A stretch of DNA of 49,778 nucleotides from a virus (Duplodnaviria > Heunggongvirae > Uroviricota > Caudoviricetes), in IMG/VR virus record IMGVR_UViG_2579778554_000010; one strand, 5' to 3'. The notes under the pieces are model-generated. The model was not told where the DNA came from, made no database searches, and was given only the letters and a program-made list of their open reading frames with translations. Below, piece by piece: positions 1 to 35,495 of this stretch (position 1 is the stretch's first letter; every line of letters begins with the position of its first letter). The position numbers and the translations under genes were made by a program.

Positions 1-1131
1 TCAAATGACCAGTTTTTTCCATTCCTTACCGCGTGCGTCGTTGTAAATATCGGTCATTTTTTGATTCGAATGGCCCAGCAAAATTTTGGTATCAACCCCC
101 TGCTCTCTGAACAATCGCTCTGATAAAGATCTCTGCTCATGGAAAGAGGGTGGGGTGCCATTAGCACGCCAGTTGTAATCCACAGAATCCCGGGCTTTTT
201 TAAATGCAACGGTTAATGTTGCTGGCTTAACCATCCCGCCGCGCTTAGCTGTCCCTTTCGCGTGATGGTGGTGCAATAGCCACGGACTAAGAACGCAATC
301 GCGGCAGGATGACACTACATCATCCAGGGTGAGATTTAATTTATCGCAACGCAGAGCCAGAGGGATGGCAATCCGGGTTCCTGTTTTTTGCTGTTCGACA
401 TGAAGATAACCATCCCGGATATCCGAAAATTGCATTTTGCAAATATCTGAAAGGCGCTGGCCTGTCATCAGTGCCAGCAGCATACCGCGCTGTAAAAAGT
501 AACCATCCTTTTCCGCTGCGTTATAAATCATCATCCACTCATCAAAAGTCAGTCGCTGTCTTGATATCCGCACCTGCGGTTTTTTTGCCGATTCTGCAGG
601 GTTAAAGCCTGGCGGGACATCGCCCGTTTGCTGAGCTTCCCGGAAAACATCGATCAGTACTTTCCTGAAAATTTGTCCCATTCTGTTATGTCCTCTGGCC
701 TTGTACTCTTCCAGTACTGATACCACATCTTTTACGGTTATGGCATCTAACGGTCTGGTGCCAAAACGTTCATCAAATACCCTGAGAGGGGCCGCTTTCT
801 GTTTCAGCGTGTTGAGTTTGATCTCGCCGTTTTCATATCTTTCCTGTTGAATTTTTCTGTAATTATTCAGAAAAATGGTAACGGTTGATGAACCGCCGGT
901 ATCACTAATAATTTTCTCCTGCAGACTGAGCATTTGTTCCATTTGCTGCCGGGCAAGACGGCTGTTCGCTTCTGCTGCAATAGTTTCTGCCAGTTTCTGG
1001 TCAATACTGCCGAGACCGTGATTTTTGCCTGTTATGGGATGCCTGTAACGCCAGTAAACTTTGTTATTTCTTTTGTCAAAATACGGAGATAATCCCGGAA
1101 CATCGGTTTTATATTTTCGCGGGCGCGCCAT
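1..1131 (-). CDS. int: Phage integrase (tyrosine recombinase); complete, stop codon at 1-3
   Basis: 376-aa ORF at the prophage edge, followed by an overlapping excisionase gene; position and size fit a lambdoid Int. Family assignment is by architecture, not a search. Confidence 0.85.
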   Translation of the reverse strand: MARPRKYKTDVPGLSPYFDKRNNKVYWRYRHPITGKNHGLGSIDQKLAETIAAEANSRLARQQMEQMLSLQEKIISDTGGSSTVTIFLNNYRKIQQERYENGEIKLNTLKQKAAPLRVFDERFGTRPLDAITVKDVVSVLEEYKARGHNRMGQIFRKVLIDVFREAQQTGDVPPGFNPAESAKKPQVRISRQRLTFDEWMMIYNAAEKDGYFLQRGMLLALMTGQRLSDICKMQFSDIRDGYLHVEQQKTGTRIAIPLALRCDKLNLTLDDVVSSCRDCVLSPWLLHHHHAKGTAKRGGMVKPATLTVAFKKARDSVDYNWRANGTPPSFHEQRSLSERLFREQGVDTKILLGHSNQKMTDIYNDARGKEWKKLVI

Positions 1132-1357
1132 CTTCCAGTATCCTCTTCAAAGCAGGGTGATCTGTGGCGATCACCTCCGGCTTGTTTACCATTCCGACAA
1201 AGCGAGCTTGCGGATCCACTCGCCAGCGTCTTCCAACTTTTTTGGGGAGAGGAAATATCATTCCGGCTTTAGCGTATTTACTTAACGTACTCGGAGTTGG
1301 GACCGGTTCACTGAATTCCTCTTTTGCCCACTCAGTGAGCAGAATAAGTCTTGCCAT
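1109..1357 (-). CDS. xis: Excisionase
   Basis: 82-aa ORF overlapping the int start by 23 nt; contains an EW...IFPLPKKVGRRW pattern resembling the lambda Xis winged helix. Confidence 0.7.
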   Translation of the reverse strand: MARLILLTEWAKEEFSEPVPTPSTLSKYAKAGMIFPLPKKVGRRWRVDPQARFVGMVNKPEVIATDHPALKRILEDGAPAKI

Positions 1358-1421
1358 GAGCGTCGTTCGCTAATCATGGTCGCCGCCACTATAGCTGGTG
1401 GGCAACGACCGGGGTTGAACA

Positions 1422-3893
1422 TTAAAAATCAGCCTGATTCGGGATCAGTTTTTGCCAGATAACTGAAACGTATTTTGCCTGGTAACGGGCGTCATCAAGT
1501 GCATTATGGCGCTCACCTTCGAATGGAATAGCCGTTCTGGCATCGAAGTCTATGGCTTTCCCCAGCTCAACGATTGTGCGTACATCGCGATCGTTGTAGT
1601 AACGCCACGGGCAGGGGATCCCCTGCCGTTCGTATGAACGGCGCAAAATCGTGTTGTCGAAGTTGGCTCCATTTCCCCAGACCTGAACAAAAAATTCACC
1701 GGAGTTTTCGTCGATAAATTCCCGCAATTGTAACAGTGCATCATCTAACGGGATTTCATCGGTCATAATGGCAGATTGCGCTTCGCGTGATTGCTTAAGC
1801 CACCATTTAATGGTGTCCCGATCAATGACCCCGCCAGCAGTTTCCAGATCGATAGTCTTACTAAATTCCGGTCCCATATCTCCGGTTTGCGGATCGAAAA
1901 ATATTGCACCTATTGAGATGATCGGGGCATCAGGATTTTTTCCCATGGTTTCAAGGTCGATCATTAGATGGTCACACGTCCTGCTGGTGGATGTGATTTC
2001 TTGATGACCGTTCACCTTAATTGAGTGATCTGCCGTCTCGCCAGTTTCATTATCGCTATCGTGATGCTGATTGCCGCCAGTGTTCTCCTTGTGTGGATGT
2101 TCAGCGCCTTCCATTTCCTCCGGATCATCTTCCTGAACTTCAACCTGATACTCTTCATCGAATGTTTCCTGGTATGTTGCGTCGCCCATCACCGCGCCAC
2201 AATCAGGGCAGTTGCCGCCGCCGGTCTGACCGCAGGCGGTGCAGACTTTTTCCACTTCCTGTTGCGCCACTGGTTCAGGCTGTTTCGTTTCTGGCTCGTT
2301 TTGTAACGCATTTGGGCTGTTTTGTTCCGCTTTCTGGCCGTTCTGTTCCGTTTCTTGCTGGTTCTGATTCACTGAATCGCGGGTTTCAATCCCCTTCACC
2401 CATTTCGGATCATTCGGGTCGCTAATCCCTGCAACAAATTCACCACGTGATACAGCAAGCAACTTATTGGCGTCAGGCTGGCTGATATTGGCTGCCTGCA
2501 TAATTTTGTTTACTTCGTCAGCGGTAACTTTTACCGGCTCTGGTTGTGCGATCGTGTCAGATGCACCAGTATTTTGTTGTGAACCAGAGTACGTGCCGTT
2601 TTTACGTGCGAAGTATTCCTCTTTTGTGATTTCCGTAGCTCCCAGGGCCAGTGCTTTTTCCAGACCAGAAAGTTTGTTTGCGCGACCGTATTTTTCGCCG
2701 TCCTTATCGGTGAAAAGGAAGTAGAACGGTCCCTCACGCTCTACAGATGGTTCGTCTTCCACTTCGCATTCGGTTTTTTCGTTGTCCGGCATTGCCGTTT
2801 CCACTGCATCAGTTTCTGGTACTGGCGACGAGAGAGTATCAGTTGCGCTCTGATTTCTTCCTTCATCTTCAAACACGCCCTTTGTAGTCAGGTATTCAGT
2901 AATGTATTTGTTCAGTGCCACAGGGTCTTTGTGAATGTCGATCGGACGTTCACGGACAAGGCCAAAAATAGTCTGGCGGTCGTAGCGAAGGGCATCAGGC
3001 TGTTTGCGCATTGATGCCGAGATACGCTTCCAGTCTTCGCGGTCGTTGTCGATAACTTCATTTTTTGCCCAGCGATGGATGCTGCCGTCAATGTTTCCGG
3101 CATCCACATCACCAGGCCAGAGAGCGTAGGCCAGTTCGTCATCCAGTGTTTTCCATGTCTGCTTGTATTCGCGATGAATGGCAGCAATGACCGGGCTGAT
3201 TTTTCCTGTTGAATTTTCACTGTGCTGTTGATTGGTTCTGGCGCGGGCGAGATCAACAACAGACGTGTATTTTCCGGTTTCCTTGCGTTCACCTTCGCGA
3301 CGTTTTTTCCAGATGCGCATCTCTGCCTGAATTTCGGGCCATTTGGCACCAGGCTTACATTTATGCTTAACCCACCCGATGGCATGCAGCTTAAGCTCCG
3401 GATACATGGCGTTAACTTCTGGCATTTTCATCAACGCTTCAACGATATGTCCGTCGAATGTTGCCATGTCTTCCTGCAACAATTCCTGTGCGCTAATAAC
3501 CATATCAACGGTGATGTTTTCACATGTGTCGAACTTAACCATGACAGCGTTCTGTACTTCAGGGGCCAACTTGTCAAAAGTGACGTTCATCGGATCTGAT
3601 TCAGTCTCAACCGGGACAAAGGAAGCAGACTCCTCATCCCAGCGGTTTTCCTGCATATATTCAGCATCCCAGGAATCGAGGGCAGGGCGGGGTATGCCGG
3701 GTTTATCCTCACAGACAATAAATTTATAAGCGCAGTCCTGAGCAGCCGGATAATGTTCCAGGAATTGCCAGTGAAATTTTGCGCGGGCGCGACGTTCATC
3801 ACCGGCTTCAATGGCAGTGGCTACAGCGACTGCACCTTCTTCCTTTATTGCCTGTTCGTCCGGAATGGCGGCGCAAATAAAGACTTTACTCAT
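1422..3893 (-). CDS. Phage exonuclease, 823 aa, with C-terminal DEDDh-type 3'-5' exonuclease domain (full-length counterpart of the truncated Qin ydfE)
   Basis: C-terminal motifs MIDLETMG ... WGNGANFD ... HNALDDA typical of DnaQ-like exonucleases; acidic central region; sits in the early-left operon next to xis. Confidence 0.7.
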   Translation of the reverse strand: MSKVFICAAIPDEQAIKEEGAVAVATAIEAGDERRARAKFHWQFLEHYPAAQDCAYKFIVCEDKPGIPRPALDSWDAEYMQENRWDEESASFVPVETESDPMNVTFDKLAPEVQNAVMVKFDTCENITVDMVISAQELLQEDMATFDGHIVEALMKMPEVNAMYPELKLHAIGWVKHKCKPGAKWPEIQAEMRIWKKRREGERKETGKYTSVVDLARARTNQQHSENSTGKISPVIAAIHREYKQTWKTLDDELAYALWPGDVDAGNIDGSIHRWAKNEVIDNDREDWKRISASMRKQPDALRYDRQTIFGLVRERPIDIHKDPVALNKYITEYLTTKGVFEDEGRNQSATDTLSSPVPETDAVETAMPDNEKTECEVEDEPSVEREGPFYFLFTDKDGEKYGRANKLSGLEKALALGATEITKEEYFARKNGTYSGSQQNTGASDTIAQPEPVKVTADEVNKIMQAANISQPDANKLLAVSRGEFVAGISDPNDPKWVKGIETRDSVNQNQQETEQNGQKAEQNSPNALQNEPETKQPEPVAQQEVEKVCTACGQTGGGNCPDCGAVMGDATYQETFDEEYQVEVQEDDPEEMEGAEHPHKENTGGNQHHDSDNETGETADHSIKVNGHQEITSTSRTCDHLMIDLETMGKNPDAPIISIGAIFFDPQTGDMGPEFSKTIDLETAGGVIDRDTIKWWLKQSREAQSAIMTDEIPLDDALLQLREFIDENSGEFFVQVWGNGANFDNTILRRSYERQGIPCPWRYYNDRDVRTIVELGKAIDFDARTAIPFEGERHNALDDARYQAKYVSVIWQKLIPNQADF

Positions 3894-3985
3894 TTTGTTT
3901 TACCTCATTACAGATTTAAGGGTGAACAAATCCCTGCCATTGCTGGCATATAAGAATGAAACCGGATATTTATTACGGAACTGTT

Positions 3986-4177
3986 TTAAAGACCTGCCGG
4001 GATTTCGTTATTATCCTGGTGAATAACTTTATCGACCGGGTAACAGTTACCGGGAATTTTCTGTTCGGTTGCTGCAGTCACACACTCCTGCATTGTCCTG
4101 TGAACACTGACTGCAATATCAACTGGCTCTCCGGAAACAAGAAAAACTGTCAGAACAAGTGCAAATGCTGTATTCAT
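3986..4177 (-). CDS. ydfD: YdfD-like small protein with N-terminal hydrophobic segment (Qin YdfD is a reported lysis-inducing protein)
   Basis: 63-aa ORF MNTAFALVLTVFLVSG...; its ATG overlaps the dicB stop in an ATGA arrangement; same size and position as ydfD after dicB in Qin. Confidence 0.55.
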   Translation of the reverse strand: MNTAFALVLTVFLVSGEPVDIAVSVHRTMQECVTAATEQKIPGNCYPVDKVIHQDNNEIPAGL

Positions 4178-4362
4178 TGTGCACATCCTTTTTGTATCGG
4201 ACGTAAACGGGCCAGCATTGAAAGAATGCATATTTTATTTAATAACTCCCGTTCGTGTTTTCTCTTGTTAATGGCATCTTCAGTAAATACAGGGTTACTG
4301 ATAGTGACACCAATTTCAAAACAACCTTCAGACGTATTAACGTTTGGTAATAACGTTTCCAT
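4174..4362 (-). CDS. dicB: Cell division inhibitor DicB
   Basis: 62-aa product METLLPNVNTSEGCFEIGVTISNPVFTEDAINKRKHERELLNKICILSMLARLRPIQKGCAQ, near-identical to my recollection of E. coli K-12 DicB; start codon at 4362-4360. Confidence 0.85.
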   Translation of the reverse strand: METLLPNVNTSEGCFEIGVTISNPVFTEDAINKRKHERELLNKICILSMLARLRPIQKGCAQ

Positions 4363-4532
4363 TATCGCGTCCTCAACAATGAATTTTGTGATGCGGTGCC
4401 TGGTGCCTCCAGGTGACGTTAACCAGTTAACAATTAACGCCGGATACAGAGAATCCACCCATAACACTGTTTTTGGTTTTAACTGTTCCGCGTGCGCTCA
4501 GCCGCATTCACCACATCACAAAATTCACTTTA

Positions 4533-4589
4533 AAAAGGGCGGCAGAGCAGTCACGGAGTAAAACTGATACCGCCAAACGTCACCAGAAA
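4533..4589 (-). ncRNA. dicF: DicF small RNA (ftsZ-targeting sRNA)
   Basis: Minus-strand sequence UUUCUGGUGACGUUUGGCGGUAUCAGUUUUACUCCGUGACUGCUCUGCCGCCCUUUUU matches recalled DicF, including the 3' terminator hairpin; lies just upstream of dicB as in Qin. Confidence 0.7.
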
Positions 4590-4924
4590 ATTGATAACAG
4601 AGGGCGTTGCAGCGGGGTTGTCACTTAAGCGTATGGTCAACCTGACAACCCGGTGTCCTCAACGGGGGAAGGAATAACCCCGCCATACTTACCGCCGCGC
4701 CATTTCGCGGATTGCCACAACCGGAAGCGCACGGTCGACGAAAATTTAACGACAGGCTATCTATGAACCAGCTACCTCGCCGAGCGCTTTCGCGTTATGG
4801 TCTGACTTTTCAGGGAAATATCCTTTCAGTAAACTGTCAGTGCCGGATGCTCACCCGTGTCCGGCGCACGCACTCCACCTCACCCGTGGAGAACTCCTTA
4901 ATCACCAACCCTCAGGAGGGTGAA

Positions 4925-5200
4925 ATGTCGACTGAAAATGATGAAATCATTAACTCCCTGATACGCCAGATTAATAATTTTGATAAAGCATTGCAGCATG
5001 CTGCGGCGCGTAGTGATATAACTCTTTTAGCAATTTCATTTCTTGCATCTGTTATGGATAAAAATGAAGTCGTACGACAGAGTCTTGTTGATTATATCGA
5101 CTCGCTTCAACCCGGCACTTTCAATCATGAGAGCTTCAATCATGAGAAAGAGCATGTTAAGTCTGTAATTAATTCTCTTATTTTGAATCAAAAGAATTAA
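4925..5200 (+). CDS. Hypothetical protein, 91 aa, AT-rich
   Basis: ATG preceded by a strong RBS (AGGAGGGTGAA-ATG); opposite orientation to the surrounding operon; no recognisable domain. Confidence 0.45.
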   Translation: MSTENDEIINSLIRQINNFDKALQHAAARSDITLLAISFLASVMDKNEVVRQSLVDYIDSLQPGTFNHESFNHEKEHVKSVINSLILNQKN

Positions 5201-5498
5201 TGCTTTTTGTTGCAAAGTAATTTTCAAGGGGTTCTATTCGAATCCCTTTCGTTTTCATTAACAAGCCAAACCCCTTATCAATGATGTCCATTAGATCCAG
5301 GAAGTATTTTTCATGTAAATCCTGGTTATCAGAGAGCAGCTTCTCTTCGTACAGACCGATAAAGGCACGACGCACGTTACCGGATATAGTATCGATGGTT
5401 TCTTTTTCTACGGTACTCAGGTCAAGAGTCGCCAGTTGGGAACGAACTATATTCGCTGCCATTTCCTGGAATGGCATTGGTAAATCTTTAAATTCCAT
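5178..5498 (-). CDS. Hypothetical protein, 106 aa
   Basis: ATG immediately after the ydfC-like stop with a GAGG RBS; AT-rich; 3' end overlaps the convergent 4925..5200 ORF. Confidence 0.5.
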   Translation of the reverse strand: MEFKDLPMPFQEMAANIVRSQLATLDLSTVEKETIDTISGNVRRAFIGLYEEKLLSDNQDLHEKYFLDLMDIIDKGFGLLMKTKGIRIEPLENYFATKSINSFDSK

Positions 5499-5500
5499 TA

Positions 5501-5740
5501 TTAGCCTCGTTGGTTAGCTATTAACGTGGGTATGTAACCATTCTGGCAATGCTTAATGCCGCTGCTTTTTTCCAGCCTGGTGATATCCTGCTCCAGAGCG
5601 GACAGATTTTCAGCCTGCTTAGTCCTGGCTTCATTGGCCCATTTCAGATCCTGCACTGCATTAATTTTCTGGCGCATCCACTCATAAAGTTCATCATCGG
5701 TATAGTCTGGCGCGATGATGACGGGTTCTCGTTTCTGCAT
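5501..5740 (-). CDS. ydfC: YdfC-like protein
   Basis: N-terminus MQKREPVIIAPDYTDDELYEWMRQKINA... matches recalled Qin YdfC. Confidence 0.7.
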   Translation of the reverse strand: MQKREPVIIAPDYTDDELYEWMRQKINAVQDLKWANEARTKQAENLSALEQDITRLEKSSGIKHCQNGYIPTLIANQRG

Positions 5741-5769
5741 ACTGATTCCTCGCGGTGCTGTTTCGCTTA

Positions 5770-5898
5770 TCAGCCGTTAGATTTTCCCGAACTGGAAAGC
5801 GCCTGTTTAAATTCACTGAAGCTGAGAGCTTCTTCGCCTTCGGCAAGACCATCGAAGTATTCTTCGTAAGCCTTTTCCATGATTGTGTCGAAATCCAT
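5770..5898 (-). CDS. ydfB: YdfB-like small protein, 42 aa
   Basis: Hand translation MDFDTIMEKAYEEYFDGLAEGEEALSFSEFKQALSSSGKSNG; below the size cut-off of the ORF track; lies between the ydfA-like and ydfC-like genes as in Qin. Confidence 0.6.
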   Translation of the reverse strand: MDFDTIMEKAYEEYFDGLAEGEEALSFSEFKQALSSSGKSNG

Positions 5899-5899
5899 A

Positions 5900-6055
5900 T
5901 CACTCACCTGAGTTTCTTTCCAGCCAGCGACGGGCACCATTTTCGGTTTTAAACGTTTTGCTTTTGGTATACGTCATCGCGGTGAATGTGCCGTCCTGGT
6001 TGGGAAACACGCCGTACACCAGAGATTCGTTGTTGCCAAGCTCGATAGTATCCAT
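5900..6055 (-). CDS. ydfA: YdfA-like small protein, 51 aa
   Basis: Hand translation MDTIELGNNESLVYGVFPNQDGTFTAMTYTKSKTFKTENGARRWLERNSGE; first gene downstream of the repressor gene, as in Qin. Confidence 0.6.
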   Translation of the reverse strand: MDTIELGNNESLVYGVFPNQDGTFTAMTYTKSKTFKTENGARRWLERNSGE

Positions 6056-6346
6056 GCTGACCTCATTTCCCCTTAACGCCGGGTGGCGGAACTAAAACCT
6101 GCTGCATAGTTATTAAAGTTGAACCCTGCCGTCATGTTCTTACGCCTCGGGCTGGCTACTTAACCCCTGACCACTGCCTGGTAACTCGAAGTATTGCCCT
6201 GCATTCTGTAGGATGGGGTGAGGGAATGAATGAAGTTTAGAAAAACGAACTTTTCAGGTCAATGTTTTTTTATCAAAACATTTTAAGCAGGCAGCTGTTA
6301 AGCCATCACCACGATGGCATACAGTTAATCAAATAGATGAGGTTGG

Positions 6347-6985
6347 TTAAATATCTTGTTGAATTTTAAAGCATACGCCCAATATGCAAGATAGATCATC
6401 CAGCATAATTGAAGGGTAGCGAGGATTCGTGGGGACTAAAAGAATATCCGGCCCTTCTATCTCCAGTTTACGAATGACAGGTGTTGTGGTCCCTTTGGGT
6501 AAGGCAAGGACAATATTTCCTGGTTGTACGGTTCGATCGGGATCAACAAAAACTGTTGAACCATTTGGGATGGAAACTCCCCCACCAGATGTTGACATAC
6601 TGTCACTCTCTAGAACAACTGCAAAGGTATTGACCGGGATTTCTCCGACAAGCTGCACACAAGAGGTTATTGAGGAATTTTTCATATAATCACTCCAGCT
6701 TGCTGCCTGCTGAAGTGATAGTAGCGGAACCGTTTTTATCGGCGGTAAAGATAGATCAAGCGAATCACCTGTATTTAACTCTCCTCCATTAAGAAGCCAA
6801 TTTTCGTTTACTTTCAATATTTTTGCCAGTGAACTTATGTAACGCGAGGACGGCGCTCCTCCACCGTTCATCCATTGACTTACGGAGCCTTTTGATGCGC
6901 CAGTGCCATTGACAAGGTCTTTGCCTTTCAGGTTTAGCGCATGCATACGTTGGGTTATGCGTTCAGATATAGTTTGCTTGCTCAT
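6347..6985 (-). CDS. CI-type prophage repressor (N-terminal HTH, C-terminal S24 LexA-like autopeptidase domain)
   Basis: 212 aa; HTH-like N-terminus (GTGASKGSVSQWMNGGGAPSS); long C-terminal domain; divergent from a cro-like gene across an AT-rich intergenic region. Occupies the dicA position but is longer than K-12 DicA. Confidence 0.75.
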   Translation of the reverse strand: MSKQTISERITQRMHALNLKGKDLVNGTGASKGSVSQWMNGGGAPSSRYISSLAKILKVNENWLLNGGELNTGDSLDLSLPPIKTVPLLSLQQAASWSDYMKNSSITSCVQLVGEIPVNTFAVVLESDSMSTSGGGVSIPNGSTVFVDPDRTVQPGNIVLALPKGTTTPVIRKLEIEGPDILLVPTNPRYPSIMLDDLSCILGVCFKIQQDI

Positions 6986-33616: not shown

Positions 33617-35111
33617 TCTTTCACACATTATTGCAGCAGCATTCAATGAACCGCTGCTTCTGGAGCCCGCCTATGCGCGGGTTTTCTTTTGCGCGCTCGG
33701 GCGCGAGATGGGGGCAGCAAGTCTTTCGGTACCGCAACAGCAGGTACAGCTTGATGCTCCCGGGATGCTGGCTGAAACGGACGAGTACATGGCCGGAGGT
33801 AAACGACCGGCCCGTGTTTACCGGGTGGTGAACGGTATTGCGGTACTGCCGGTGACCGGCACGCTGGTGCACCGGCTGGGGGGGATGCGGCCATTTTCCG
33901 GAATGACTGGCTATGACGGCATTGTCGCCTGTCTTCAGCAGGCAATGGCAGATAGCCAGGTGCGGGGCATACTGCTGGACATTGACAGTCCGGGCGGGCA
34001 GGCCGCCGGCGCGTTTGACTGCGTTGACATGATTTACCGCCTCCGGCAGCAGAAGCCGGTCTGGGCACTGTGCAATGACACGGCCTGTTCTGCAGCCATG
34101 CTGCTGGCGTCGGCCTGCTCCCGACGGCTGGTTACCCAGACATCCCGTATCGGCTCCATTGGCGTGATGATGAGCCATGTCAGCTATGCCGGTCATCTGG
34201 CGCAGGCCGGTGTGGATATCACGCTGATTTATGCCGGGGCGCACAAGGTGGATGGCAATCAGTTTGAAGCGTTGCCGGCAGAGGTTCGCCAGGACATGCA
34301 GCAGCGGATTGATGCGGCGCGCCGGATGTTTGCCGAAAAAGTGGCGATGTATACCGGTCTGTCTGTTGATGCCGTCACGGGAACAGAGGCTGCCGTTTTT
34401 GAAGGTCAGTCCGGCATTGAGGCCGGGCTGGCGGATGAATTAATCAATGCGTCGGATGCCATCAGTGTGATGGCCACGGCGCTGAACAGTAATGTCAGAG
34501 GAGGCACTATGCCGCAATTAACTGCAACGGAAGCCGCCGTGCAGGAGAACCAGCGAGTGATGGGGATCCTGACATGCCAGGAAGCGAAAGGACGTGAACA
34601 GCTTGCCACGATGCTGGCAGGGCAACAGGGCATGAGCGTTGAACAGGCCCGGGCGATTCTGGCCGCGGCGGCACCGCAGCAGCCGGTGGCATCCGCACAG
34701 AGTGAAGCCGATCGCATTATGGCGTGTGAAGAAGCGAACGGTCGTGAACAACTGGCAGCAACGCTGGCGGCGATGCCGGAGAGGACGGTGGAAAAAGCCC
34801 GCCCGATCCTGGCTGCTTCACCGCAGGCGAATGCCGGGCCCTCACTTCGTGATCAGATCATGGCACTGGATGAGGCAAAAGGGGCTGAGGCGCAGGCTGA
34901 ACAGCTGGCTGCCTGCCCGGGAATGACTGTGGAGAGCGCCCGGGCTGTGCTGGCTGCGGGATCAGGTAAGGCAGAACCGGTCTCTGCATCCACAACCGCC
35001 CTGTTTGAACATTTCATGGCGAACCATTCACCGGCTGCGGTCCAGGGGGGCGTGTCACAGGCGTCAGAAGACGGTGATGCGGACGTGAAAATGCTCATGG
35101 CCATGCCATGA
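33606..35111 (+). CDS. C: Head maturation protease / scaffold (lambda C with Nu3-like region; S49 peptidase family)
   Basis: Lambda gpC-like N-terminal protease domain; C-terminal region has three tandem ~43-aa repeats. Confidence 0.85.
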   Translation: MRRNLSHIIAAAFNEPLLLEPAYARVFFCALGREMGAASLSVPQQQVQLDAPGMLAETDEYMAGGKRPARVYRVVNGIAVLPVTGTLVHRLGGMRPFSGMTGYDGIVACLQQAMADSQVRGILLDIDSPGGQAAGAFDCVDMIYRLRQQKPVWALCNDTACSAAMLLASACSRRLVTQTSRIGSIGVMMSHVSYAGHLAQAGVDITLIYAGAHKVDGNQFEALPAEVRQDMQQRIDAARRMFAEKVAMYTGLSVDAVTGTEAAVFEGQSGIEAGLADELINASDAISVMATALNSNVRGGTMPQLTATEAAVQENQRVMGILTCQEAKGREQLATMLAGQQGMSVEQARAILAAAAPQQPVASAQSEADRIMACEEANGREQLAATLAAMPERTVEKARPILAASPQANAGPSLRDQIMALDEAKGAEAQAEQLAACPGMTVESARAVLAAGSGKAEPVSASTTALFEHFMANHSPAAVQGGVSQASEDGDADVKMLMAMP

Positions 35112-35147
35112 AGTCAGTGCTGAACATCAATACGAGGTTTTAACAAT

Positions 35148-35495
35148 ATGGTGACGAAAACCATCACTGAACAGCGTGCGGAAGTACGTATTTTTGCCGG
35201 TAATGATCCGGCTCACACCGCCACAGGCAGCAGCGGGATTTCCTCGGCAACACCGGCACTGACACCCCTGATGCTGGATGGGGCCACCGGGAAACTGGTG
35301 GTCTGGGACGGACAGAAAGCCGGTAGTGCGGTTGGCATACTGGTACTGCCGCTTGAAGGCACAGAGGCGGTGCTGACGTATTACAAGTCGGGGACCTTTG
35401 CGACGGAGGCAATCCGCTGGCCTGAAAGTGTGGATGAACACAAAAAGGCCAACGCCTTTACCGGCAGTGCCCTGAGTCACGCGGCGCTGCCGTAA
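35148..35495 (+). CDS. D: Head decoration protein D
   Basis: NDPAHTATGSSG...TPLMLD...KLVVWDG...YKSGTF resembles lambda gpD. Confidence 0.9.
   Translation: MVTKTITEQRAEVRIFAGNDPAHTATGSSGISSATPALTPLMLDGATGKLVVWDGQKAGSAVGILVLPLEGTEAVLTYYKSGTFATEAIRWPESVDEHKKANAFTGSALSHAALP

What the first reader, a model, noticed from the sequence alone, without database searches (positions are those of the whole stretch)
4600..5500. Convergent pair of unknown genes inserted into the dicB/dicF operon between ydfC and dicF
Seen in sequence: the ydfA-ydfB-ydfC-dicF-dicB-ydfD order matches the Qin operon as I recall it, but about 0.9 kb of AT-rich DNA separates ydfC from dicF. It carries a 106-aa gene co-oriented with the operon (5178-5498, RBS directly after the ydfC stop) and a 91-aa gene on the opposite strand (4925-5200, strong AGGAGG RBS) whose 3' end overlaps it by about 23 bp. 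Inference: convergent transcription across dicF and dicB could modulate the cell-division inhibitor module, or the pair could be a small toxin-antitoxin or immunity module. That K-12 Qin lacks this insert is from memory, not checked.
Basis: partly seen in the sequence, partly recalled or inferred. Interest (0 to 1): 0.55.

Follow-up and report, generated by a model that had tools for sequence, protein, structure and literature searches.

The report
Convergent gene pair in sieB slot
Two small unnamed prophage genes facing each other just upstream of the DicF/DicB cell-division inhibitors are real, recur as a pair in E. coli and Salmonella prophages, and sit where phage lambda and Rac keep their exclusion gene sieB, so they are probably a lysogen-expressed accessory protein plus its phage-encoded partner; their function is untested.

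Summary
ORF91 (4925-5200, +) and ORF106 (5178-5498, -) lie between ydfC and DicF (4537-4588, -) and overlap by 23 bp. K-12 Qin lacks exactly 4911-5500.

It is not one simple insert.
- ORF106 is a fusion. Its 53-aa N-terminal domain is common in early-left operons (930/5426 E. coli genomes). I call its C-terminal half the "M-domain".
- ORF91 belongs to a very narrow ~90-aa helical family: 18 clusters in 1.8 billion proteins, from Escherichia, Salmonella and Klebsiella.
- In six prophage contexts an ORF91-family gene is convergent with, and 3'-overlapped by, a minus-strand gene. These partners are linked by a chain of similarity.
- At least four unrelated small genes occupy the same site in other prophages. 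All start at the same Shine-Dalgarno/ATG behind a conserved structured leader.
- Lambda and Rac carry sieB at this position.

Nothing matches Pfam, NCBIfam, PADLOC, PDB or BFVD.

Best reading (inferred): ORF91 is made in the lysogen and silenced by head-on early-left transcription, and the M-domain protein is its early partner. A toxin-antitoxin-like pair and pure transcriptional interference remain possible. ORF91 is transcribed away from dicF/dicB, not across them. Moderately interesting; uncharacterised.

The parts
4537..4588 (-). DicF sRNA gene (context; downstream target of the early-left operon)
   Evidence: Rfam RF00039, 76.7 bits against gathering score 48, full length
4589..4910 (.). 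Conserved 322-bp DicF leader, shared with K-12 Qin
   Evidence: Present in 4326/5426 E. coli genomes at 88-100% identity; alignment
4807..4835 (+). Candidate sigma-70 promoter for the plus-strand cassette gene (TTTTCA-17-TAAACT); inferred only
   Evidence: 8/12 match, below the scan threshold. Salmonella L098 keeps TTTTCA-18-TAAGCT with a diverged spacer. A -10-like hexamer sits 5-7 nt before hairpin 1 in three different upstream sequences
4840..4867 (+). Leader hairpin 1 (11 bp, 3 G.U pairs on the plus strand)
   Evidence: MFE fold z=-4.0; kept in 8 contexts with A-U to G-C compensation
4873..4891 (+). Leader hairpin 2 (6 bp)
   Evidence: RNAalifold shows pairs with double compensatory changes, e.g. 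CUCCAC/GUGGAG versus CCCAAC/GUUGGG
4894..4919 (+). Anti-SD (CUCCU, 4894-4898) pairing with the Shine-Dalgarno AGGAG(G) (4914-4919) of ORF91
   Evidence: Helix kept in 8 contexts. U-A to A-U compensation in 3 sequences. SD and ATG are shared by unrelated cassettes
4925..5200 (+). ORF91: 91-aa acidic soluble helical protein, founding member of a narrow ~90-aa family
   Evidence: PGAP WP_000102678.1. dN/dS 0.30. Distant homologue in class B, z=8.4. 18 clusters in 1.84e9 proteins. AF2 gives 4 helices at pLDDT 69. No TM segment, pI 5.4
5178..5200 (.). 23-bp 3' overlap of the two convergent ORFs
   Evidence: The overlap is 32 nt in the 109-aa variant and 41 nt in class B and both Salmonella contexts
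5181..5339 (-). ORF106 codons 54-106: C-terminal 'M-domain', the recurrent convergent partner of ORF91-family genes
   Evidence: Residues 58-92 are 40% identical to residues 162-196 of a Salmonella 214-aa HTH protein that is the partner of P0161 (z=12.4, 0/2000 shuffles). dN/dS 0.32-0.62
5340..5498 (-). ORF106 codons 1-53: conserved N-terminal domain of a widespread early-left gene family
   Evidence: DNA found in 930/5426 genomes. Shared by phrog_6937, 1363, 2151, 9419 and 33007. Also in Stx2a phages at 46% identity. dN/dS 0.13-0.16
5226..5248 (+). Terminator-like hairpin plus T-run 26 nt after the ORF91 stop (weak evidence)
   Evidence: the count of such sites is not above shuffles, and the stem is also present where ORF91 is absent
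5501..5740 (-). ydfC (context; C-terminus frameshifted)
   Evidence: phrog_1744 matches residues 1-60; PGAP calls it a 'frameshifted' pseudogene in identical DNA
4174..4362 (-). dicB (context; kil-type division inhibitor downstream of the slot)
   Evidence: PF05358, E 2.2e-37

Best explanation
Window 4911-5500 is a genuine two-gene module sitting in the 'sieB slot' of a lambdoid prophage. That slot lies between the promoter-proximal small early-left genes (ydfA/B/C) and the kil-type genes (dicF/dicB), and the plus-strand gene in it is antisense to the early-left operon.

Shown:
- ORF91 is a protein-coding member of a narrow ~90-aa family of soluble helical proteins.
- It is preceded by a conserved, structured 5' leader whose Shine-Dalgarno is paired with an anti-SD.
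- The same leader, SD and ATG serve at least four unrelated alternative small genes in other E. coli prophages.
- ORF106 is a fusion of a common 53-aa early-left N-domain with a C-terminal M-domain.
- In six prophage contexts ORF91-family genes have a convergent, 3'-overlapping minus-strand partner. These partners are linked by a chain of pairwise similarities.

Inferred mechanism:
- ORF91 is made in the lysogen from a promoter in the distal DicF leader, as an accessory (moron-type) protein. By position it is most likely a superinfection-exclusion or abortive-infection factor.
- When the prophage is derepressed, early-left transcription runs head-on through ORF91. That silences it by collision and by antisense pairing over the whole mRNA.
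- The same early-left transcript also produces the M-domain protein. This acts as ORF91's cognate partner, as an antidote or regulator, so the phage escapes its own factor. The logic resembles SieB/Esc.
For: Genes are real: PGAP calls, PHROG 9e-67, dN/dS 0.25-0.34. The class B plus gene compared between E. coli and Salmonella gives dN/dS 0.18 at dS 0.89.

The slot matches sieB:
- In lambda, sieB (34482-35036, +) abuts N (-) between pL and kil.
- In Rac, sieB (+) lies between kilR (-) and ydaF (-) with a 4-nt 3' overlap.
- The Rac kilR-sieB spacer is 77% identical to window 4377-4575, then diverges at about 4803, where the cassette-specific leader begins.

Cassette platform:
- Classes A (91 aa), C (100 aa), D (77 aa) and E (73 aa) are unrelated in sequence. 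Class B (92 aa) is a distant homologue of A (z 8.4).
- All start at the same SD/ATG.
- They occur in 198, 127, 65, 650 and 88 of 5426 genomes (A, B, C, D, E).

Structured leader: z=-4.0, and 6 pairs show double compensatory changes, including in the SD/anti-SD helix.

Pair recurrence:
- Class A: 57/57 IMG/VR loci with the short ORF106 form have ORF91.
- Class B: a 133-aa and a 92-aa gene.
- Salmonella: a standalone 71-aa M-protein with a 93-aa gene.
- Salmonella: a 214-aa HTH-plus-M protein with a 92-aa gene.
- Two cI-adjacent loci have uncalled 55-58-aa partners whose differences fall at third codon positions.
- Similarity z-scores among partners are 9.5-33.

Composition: ORF91 is 35-38% GC against 47-57% in the flanks.

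Literature: genes antisense to lytic genes with their own promoter are typical lysogeny-expressed accessory loci (PMC7067206).
Against: - No expression data. The candidate promoter matches only 8/12 consensus positions and was not picked up by the scan.
- The type-A M-domain also occurs with an unrelated 73-aa plus gene (class E) and with no plus gene at all (class F; together 23/80 IMG/VR loci).
- A Klebsiella ORF91 homologue has no overlapping partner. The pairing is therefore not obligate.
- ORF91 is not homologous to SieB and has no membrane segment.
- Part of the similarity in the partners' tails is forced by overlapping coding with the conserved C-terminus of the plus gene.
- No physical interaction has been tested. 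No ORF91-family member was found in 50,697 sequenced phage records.
Confidence: 0.4

Rival explanations
1. Toxin-antitoxin-like or toxin-immunity pair. ORF91 would be a growth-inhibiting protein, and the M-domain a C-terminal neutralising domain carried on different N-terminal modules, as in type II antitoxins.
For: - The pair recurs in six contexts.
- The M-domain is always C-terminal. It occurs alone (55-71 aa), fused to the 53-aa N-domain, or fused to an XRE-type HTH protein of 214 aa. That resembles antitoxin architecture.
- The genes are tightly linked through their 3' overlap.
Against: - The genes are convergent, not an operon.
- The presumed antidote sits in an operon that is repressed in the lysogen, so a constitutively toxic ORF91 could not be tolerated.
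- Type-A M-domain genes exist without ORF91 (23/80 loci), and a Klebsiella ORF91 homologue is solitary.
- No hit to any toxin, antitoxin or defence profile.
Confidence: 0.2
2. The act of transcription is the function. A plus-strand promoter in the leader would fire against the early-left operon. That would insulate the toxic dicF/dicB (or kil) genes from leaky read-through by collision and antisense pairing. The encoded proteins would be secondary.
For: - Head-on geometry immediately upstream of dicF/dicB.
- Unrelated coding sequences are interchangeable behind one conserved leader.
- sieB occupies the same position upstream of kil/kilR in lambda and Rac.
Against: - Protein-level purifying selection on ORF91 and its homologues (dN/dS 0.18-0.30).
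- The family keeps its ~90-aa length across three genera.
- About 80% of DicF loci carry no plus gene.
- The pair occurs in Salmonella loci with no Rfam DicF hit.
Confidence: 0.15
3. Two functionally unrelated accessory genes that are merely neighbours. Mosaic recombination at the conserved leader and at the conserved N-domain would move the DNA between them as one block.
For: - Similarity breakpoints fall at the SD/ATG and around codon 53 of ORF106, or at codon 104 for the class A/E swap.
- The same type-A M-domain sits next to ORF91, next to an unrelated 73-aa gene, or next to nothing.
- ORF91 diverges faster than ORF106 (79% versus 93% amino-acid identity in the class A2 variant).
Against: - The association survives transfer to different backbones: Rac-like, Cox/integrase-type and cI-adjacent prophages, and two genera.
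- Across those backbones the N-terminal part of the partner and the flanks differ, but the convergent overlap and the M-type C-terminus persist.
Confidence: 0.2

Closest known systems
sieB (superinfection exclusion B) of lambda, P22 and the Rac prophage, with its escape function Esc
   Same: - Same place and orientation: a plus-strand gene embedded antisense in the early-left operon. It lies between the promoter-proximal early gene(s) and kil, and is convergent with and abutting or overlapping the preceding early gene (lambda, Rac).
- The flanking backbone is homologous.
- sieB is a prophage-expressed exclusion gene in P22 (PMC10883804).
- From my own knowledge, the phage carries its own antidote, Esc. 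P22 sieB is controlled by an antisense RNA that switches translation between two sieB-encoded peptides (PMC7067206).
   Different: - No sequence similarity; no Pfam SieB hit.
- ORF91 is 91 aa, soluble and acidic, whereas SieB is about 160-190 aa (162 and 184 aa from the gene coordinates) and membrane-associated (the latter from memory); ORF91 itself has no TM segment.
- Here the presumed antidote would be a separate convergent gene, not an in-frame internal product.
Phage 'morons' (lysogeny-expressed accessory genes inserted between conserved phage genes)
   Same: - Present or absent among otherwise near-identical prophages.
- Lower GC than the flanks.
- Antisense to lytic genes, which is described as characteristic of accessory loci (PMC7067206).
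   Different: - Its own promoter and terminator are not demonstrated.
- Several unrelated cassettes share one structured 5' leader and start codon, which is not part of the moron concept.
- It has a recurrent convergent partner gene.
Type II toxin-antitoxin modules
   Same: Two small proteins in tight linkage. The partner's conserved part is C-terminal and combined with varied N-terminal modules, including an HTH.
   Different: Convergent rather than co-transcribed. Neither protein matches a TA family. The pairing is not obligate.
Type I TA loci with 3'-overlapping convergent transcripts (txpA/RatA, bsrG/SR4 of Bacillus; from memory) and 'excludon'-type antisense operon switches
   Same: Convergent transcription units overlap at their 3' ends. 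Expression of one strand is expected to antagonise the other.
   Different: Both strands encode conserved proteins here. ORF91 is not a short hydrophobic peptide. No RNA-level data exist.
dicBF operon of K-12 Qin
   Same: Same order and orthologous ydfA, ydfB, ydfC, DicF, dicB and ydfD.
   Different: K-12 lacks 4911-5500. The published description treats the ydfC-dicF interval as a long untranslated region (PMC5069750).

Membership tests
dicBF operon (Qin type) | DicF sRNA between ydfC and dicB, with ydfA/ydfB upstream and ydfD downstream, all on one strand | tested here: met
   RF00039 76.7 bits; PF05358, PF07151 and PF07358 hits; order as in K-12
PHROG 6937 (ORF106) | Full-length profile match | tested here: met
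   E 9e-67, residues 1-106 on profile positions 1-106 of 124; function of the family is unknown
SieB superinfection exclusion family | Sequence homology to SieB (Pfam SieB model) | tested here: not met
   No Pfam family for ORF91 at E<=0.1; no PHROG with a known function
SieB superinfection exclusion family | Membrane-associated protein of about 160-190 aa | tested here: not met
   ORF91 is 91 aa; maximum Kyte-Doolittle 19-residue mean is 1.43; GRAVY -0.31
SieB superinfection exclusion family | Position: antisense gene in the early-left operon between the first early gene(s) and kil, convergent with the preceding gene | tested here: met
   Lambda, Rac, window; homologous spacer
SieB superinfection exclusion family | Expressed from the prophage and aborts superinfecting phage | not testable with these tools
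   Needs RNA/protein data and plating assays
Type II toxin-antitoxin | Two adjacent genes co-transcribed as an operon | tested here: not met
   Genes are convergent with a 23-bp 3' overlap
Type II toxin-antitoxin | Homology of either protein to a known toxin or antitoxin family | tested here: not met
   Pfam, NCBIfam and PADLOC show nothing above noise; PDB sequence and fold searches are negative
Type II toxin-antitoxin | Obligate co-occurrence of the two genes | tested here: inconclusive
   57/57 short ORF106 forms have ORF91, and six contexts are paired. But type-A M-domain genes occur without ORF91 in 23/80 loci, and the Klebsiella homologue is solitary
Type I toxin-antitoxin (3'-overlap class) | Small hydrophobic toxin peptide and a non-coding antisense RNA | tested here: not met
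   No TM segment; the opposite strand is protein-coding under purifying selection
Moron | Extra gene present in some but not other closely related phages, with deviant base composition | tested here: met
   198/5426 genomes against 4326 with the leader; 35-38% GC against 47-57%
Moron | Own promoter and terminator; expressed in the lysogen | tested here: inconclusive
   Only an 8/12 promoter candidate; terminator-like hairpin at 5226-5248 but counts are not above shuffles; conserved structured leader; expression not testable
Known anti-phage defence systems (PADLOC 2.0) | Profile match to a component of a described system | tested here: not met
   Best E-values 0.014-0.046, short partial matches

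The most novel reading that the evidence does not exclude
ORF91-family and M-domain genes would constitute a previously undescribed two-protein exclusion/antidote (or conditional toxin/antidote) module of enterobacterial prophages.
- Its two mRNAs are convergent and 3'-overlapping, so lysogenic and lytic transcription programmes switch it reciprocally.
- The distal DicF leader would be a shared riboregulated expression platform (promoter, two hairpins, SD-sequestering helix). Prophages would swap alternative lysogeny genes, including sieB-like functions, into it.
Probability: 0.25. Interest if true: 0.65.

Novelty: new variant of a known kind. Interest (0 to 1): 0.45.

Why it matters
The dicBF locus is a textbook prophage module, and the ydfC-dicF interval has been treated as untranslated (PMC5069750). 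This analysis changes that picture in three ways:
- In roughly a fifth of E. coli genomes the interval is a cassette slot homologous in position to sieB.
- One structured leader serves several unrelated small genes.
- One of those genes (ORF91) has a conserved convergent partner across genera.

If the exclusion/antidote reading is right, it would add a compact new prophage defence-and-escape pair. It would also explain why the "DicF leader" is so strongly conserved.

If the interference reading is right, it bears on how lysogens keep the lethal DicF/DicB products silent.

Either way, it gives concrete, cheap experiments on genes present in hundreds of clinical E. coli genomes.

Tried and rejected
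- Pfam, PHROGs, PADLOC and NCBIfam on both ORFs and on all alternative cassettes found no functional family.
- AlphaFold2 models of both proteins (pLDDT 70.8 and 69.2) searched with Foldseek against PDB and BFVD gave nothing below E 0.28. The afdb50 library was unavailable.
- A PDB sequence-profile search was negative.
- An exhaustive HMMER search with an ORF91-family profile found only 18 clusters, all ~90 aa, with no fusions or annotated relatives.
- tblastn of ORF91 and its class B homologue against 50,697 phage records found no match.
- Looked for a mapped antisense TSS near MG1655 position 1,649,128 in the Cappable-seq supplement. The stored file is truncated and does not reach that coordinate.
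- Considered that ORF91 was inserted into an intact 124-aa gene. I now think the reverse polarity is at least as likely. The ORF91-family/M-domain pairing is older, being present in Salmonella, and class F is demonstrably class E minus its plus gene.
- Considered the longer 145-171-aa upstream-extended versions of ORF91 that some annotations use (P0122, P0136). I rejected them because the conserved SD/ATG at 4914-4927 and family members of 90-93 aa fit the 91-aa start.
- Rfam found no DicF in the Salmonella or other loci, or in Rac.
Full report
**1. What is there**

The dicBF-type operon lies on the minus strand of the window. In order it contains:
- a cI-like S24 repressor (6347-6985);
- ydfA/DUF1391 (5900-6055), ydfB and ydfC (5501-5740);
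- a 106-aa ORF (5178-5498);
- DicF (RF00039, 76.7 bits, 4537-4588);
- dicB (PF05358), ydfD/DUF1482, and an 823-aa exonuclease.

On the plus strand there is a 91-aa ORF (4925-5200). It has AGGAGG 5 nt upstream of its ATG and overlaps the 106-aa ORF by 23 bp.

PGAP annotates both ORFs in genomes that are 100% identical over window 1-6055. The same annotation marks ydfC as frameshifted.

**2. Comparison with K-12 and other E. coli**

- In K-12, the ydfC stop is 340 bp from DicF. Here the distance is 912 bp.
- The first 322 bp next to DicF (4589-4910) occur in 4326 of 5426 complete E. coli genomes, including K-12. The whole 912 bp occurs in only 198.
- K-12 lacks exactly 4911-5500.
- Only the ORF91 segment is AT-rich (35-38% GC). 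The leader is 52-57% GC.

**3. The two ORFs are genes**

- ORF106 matches phrog_6937 over its full length (E 9e-67).
- Against diverged alleles, ORF106 has dN/dS 0.25-0.34 in frame and about 1-3 out of frame.
- ORF91 compared with an 86%-identical allele gives dN/dS 0.30, the lowest of the six frames. Variants also carry in-frame indels.
- The class B homologue of ORF91, compared between E. coli and Salmonella, gives dN/dS 0.18 at dS 0.89.

**4. ORF106 is composite**

- Residues 1-53 are nearly invariant in a family of E. coli and Salmonella proteins of 106-135 aa with several unrelated C-termini. Five PHROG families share this part.
- The DNA for this N-domain is in 930/5426 genomes.
- A 46%-identical version lies in the early-left region of Stx2a phages, next to recT/exo/ssb, with no convergent neighbour.
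- Residues 54-106 form what I call the M-domain.

**5. A cassette slot**

At the same site, other prophages carry other convergent small genes.

| Class | Minus-strand gene | Plus-strand gene | Example | Genomes (of 5426) with the plus gene |
|---|---|---|---|---|
| A | 106/109 aa | 91 aa | this window | 198 |
| B | 133 aa | 92 aa | L092 | 127 |
| C | 122 aa | 100 aa | L097 | 65 |
| D | 135 aa | 77 aa | PPompW/Evi, O157:H7 | 650 |
| E | 124 aa | 73 aa | L063 | 88 |
| F | 124 aa | none | L003, L074 | not counted |
| G | none | none | K-12 | not counted |

- The plus-strand genes of A, C, D and E are unrelated to one another.
- All begin at the same Shine-Dalgarno and ATG at the distal end of the conserved leader.
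- In 80 IMG/VR loci, the short ORF106 forms are always with ORF91 (57/57) and the 124-aa form never is (0/23).
- Class F is class E with its plus gene, SD and about 35 nt of leader deleted.
- K-12 retains leader sequence up to 14 nt before the SD. It is therefore more plausibly a deletion derivative than the ancestral, uninserted state. This polarity is an inference.

**6. The leader is a structured plus-strand element**

- The 95 nt upstream of ORF91 fold with z = -4.0.
- Across eight contexts, RNAalifold keeps two hairpins and a helix pairing CUCCU (4894-4898) with the SD AGGAG (4914-4918). Six pairs show changes on both sides.
- Hairpin 1 contains three G.U pairs on the plus strand. These would be A.C mismatches on the minus strand.
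- A weak promoter candidate (TTTTCA-17-TAAACT, 4807-4835) sits just upstream. In Salmonella the hexamers are kept (TTTTCA-18-TAAGCT) while the spacer diverges.
- The consensus scan did not report this promoter, and I have no expression data.

**7. ORF91 has a family and a recurrent partner**

Family:
- ORF91 and the class B 92-aa protein are distant homologues (Smith-Waterman z = 8.4, 0/1000 shuffles).
- A profile search of 1.84 billion cluster representatives found only 18 clusters. The full-length members are all about 90 aa, and members come from Escherichia, Salmonella and Klebsiella.

Contexts:
- In a Rac-like Salmonella prophage, the 93-aa homologue is convergent with a standalone 71-aa gene, with a 41-nt overlap. 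That 71-aa protein is 60% identical to the C-terminal half of the class B 133-aa protein.
- In a Cox/integrase-type Salmonella prophage, the 92-aa homologue is convergent with a 214-aa HTH-containing protein, again with a 41-nt overlap. Residues 162-196 of that protein are 40-43% identical to ORF106 residues 58-92, a stretch outside the overlap (z = 12-13, 0/2000 shuffles).
- In two cI-adjacent loci, uncalled 55-58-aa minus-strand ORFs overlap the plus gene. They resemble the class B tail (z 9.5) and each other (z 12), and they differ from each other at third codon positions.

Exceptions:
- A Klebsiella homologue beside a P4-type integrase has no such partner.
- The type-A M-domain also occurs next to the unrelated class E gene, or alone.

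The pairing is therefore recurrent but not obligate.

**8. Positional analogy to sieB**

- In lambda, sieB (34482-35036, +) abuts N (35037-35438, -), between pL and ral...kil.
- In Rac, sieB (+) lies between kilR (-) and ydaF (-) with a 4-nt 3' overlap.
- The Rac kilR-sieB spacer is 77% identical over 209 nt to window 4377-4575. It then diverges near 4803, where the cassette-associated leader begins.
- ORF91 therefore occupies the sieB slot of a homologous backbone. It is not a SieB homologue: there is no Pfam hit, it is 91 aa, acidic (pI 5.4), and has no membrane segment.

**9. No functional homology**

- Pfam, NCBIfam, PADLOC and PHROG-with-function returned nothing for any class.
- AF2 predicts small four-helix proteins (pLDDT about 70).
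- Foldseek against PDB and BFVD, and a PDB profile search, gave nothing.
- No family member was found in 50,697 phage records.

**10. Interpretation**

Shown: the anatomy, the distribution, the coding status, the shared structured leader, the recurrent convergent partner, and the sieB-slot position.

Inferred: ORF91 is lysogen-expressed. Early-left transcription silences it head-on. The M-domain protein is its early partner or antidote. The general rule that antisense, independently transcribed prophage genes are accessory loci comes from PMC7067206. The SieB/Esc logic is from my own knowledge, and PMC7067206 also mentions the sas RNA switch.

Three alternatives remain open: a conditional toxin/antidote pair, pure transcriptional interference protecting against dicF/dicB leakage, and mere linkage.

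ORF91 points away from them.

The published dicBF description calls this interval a long untranslated region, and shows non-conserved neighbouring genes without analysing them (PMC5069750).

**11. Verdict**

This is a real, uncharacterised prophage accessory module, and a new variant of the sieB-type antisense accessory locus. The mechanism is plausible but untested. Interest is moderate.

Noticed in passing
window 5501-5740 (-): ydfC has an altered C-terminus (79 aa; the PHROG match covers only residues 1-60). PGAP annotates the identical sequence as a frameshifted pseudogene (5521-5740) in strains SCU-204 and MCJCHV-1.
   Followed up: partly
window 4589-4910: The 'DicF leader' is very widely and tightly conserved (4326/5426 E. 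coli genomes, 88-100% identity), even where no plus-strand gene follows, as in K-12. Why K-12-type loci keep the distal part (4803-4910) is unexplained. It may also serve DicF precursor processing on the minus strand.
   Followed up: partly
L101 (K-12 Rac) 17400-17840 versus window 4377-4575: The Rac kilR-sieB spacer is 77% identical over 209 nt to the dicB-DicF spacer. The match includes a DicF-like terminator stem with a different loop, yet Rfam finds no DicF in Rac. This may be a diverged DicF paralogue or remnant.
   Followed up: partly
window 4330-4539 (-): Sub-threshold match to the Rfam sRNA family STnc100 (38.7 bits against gathering score 47) in the DicF-dicB spacer and the start of dicB.
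   Followed up: no
window 6056-6346 and 6347-6985: Mosaic joint in the immunity region. The window is 100% identical to several human E. coli isolates from 1 to about 6055. It then carries a 212-aa S24 cI-like repressor, where those genomes have a 153-aa HTH repressor with YdaS/YdaT.
   Followed up: partly
window 5120-5150 (ORF91 codons ~66-74): Tandem FNHES-FNHE repeat in ORF91. Natural variants carry an in-frame 5-aa deletion here (P0124, P0125), consistent with slippage tolerated by the protein.
   Followed up: no
L004 (strain SW070917) 1836-2115: The class B plus-strand gene is frameshifted in this strain (27 aa + 76 aa instead of 92 aa). PGAP annotates only the downstream piece.
   Followed up: yes
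L102/L103 (Klebsiella oxytoca) 3001-3276: A solitary ORF91-family gene sits next to a P4-type integrase. A TacA-like antitoxin and an N6-methyltransferase/Eco57I-type restriction gene lie on the other side of the integrase. About 45 nt of the SD-proximal leader is retained, but no dicF-type leader.
   Followed up: partly
L105-L108 (Salmonella) 4239-4883: The 214-aa partner protein combines an unknown N-terminal domain, an XRE-type HTH and the M-domain. It follows a Cox-like gene in a prophage whose early operon otherwise resembles the Rac/Qin type (exonuclease VIII, Rv2179c-like exonuclease).
   Followed up: no
window 4712-5200 (+): The ORF91 reading frame stays open 71 codons upstream, through the GC-rich leader. 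Some database entries use these extended starts (145-171 aa), which are probably over-extensions.
   Followed up: partly
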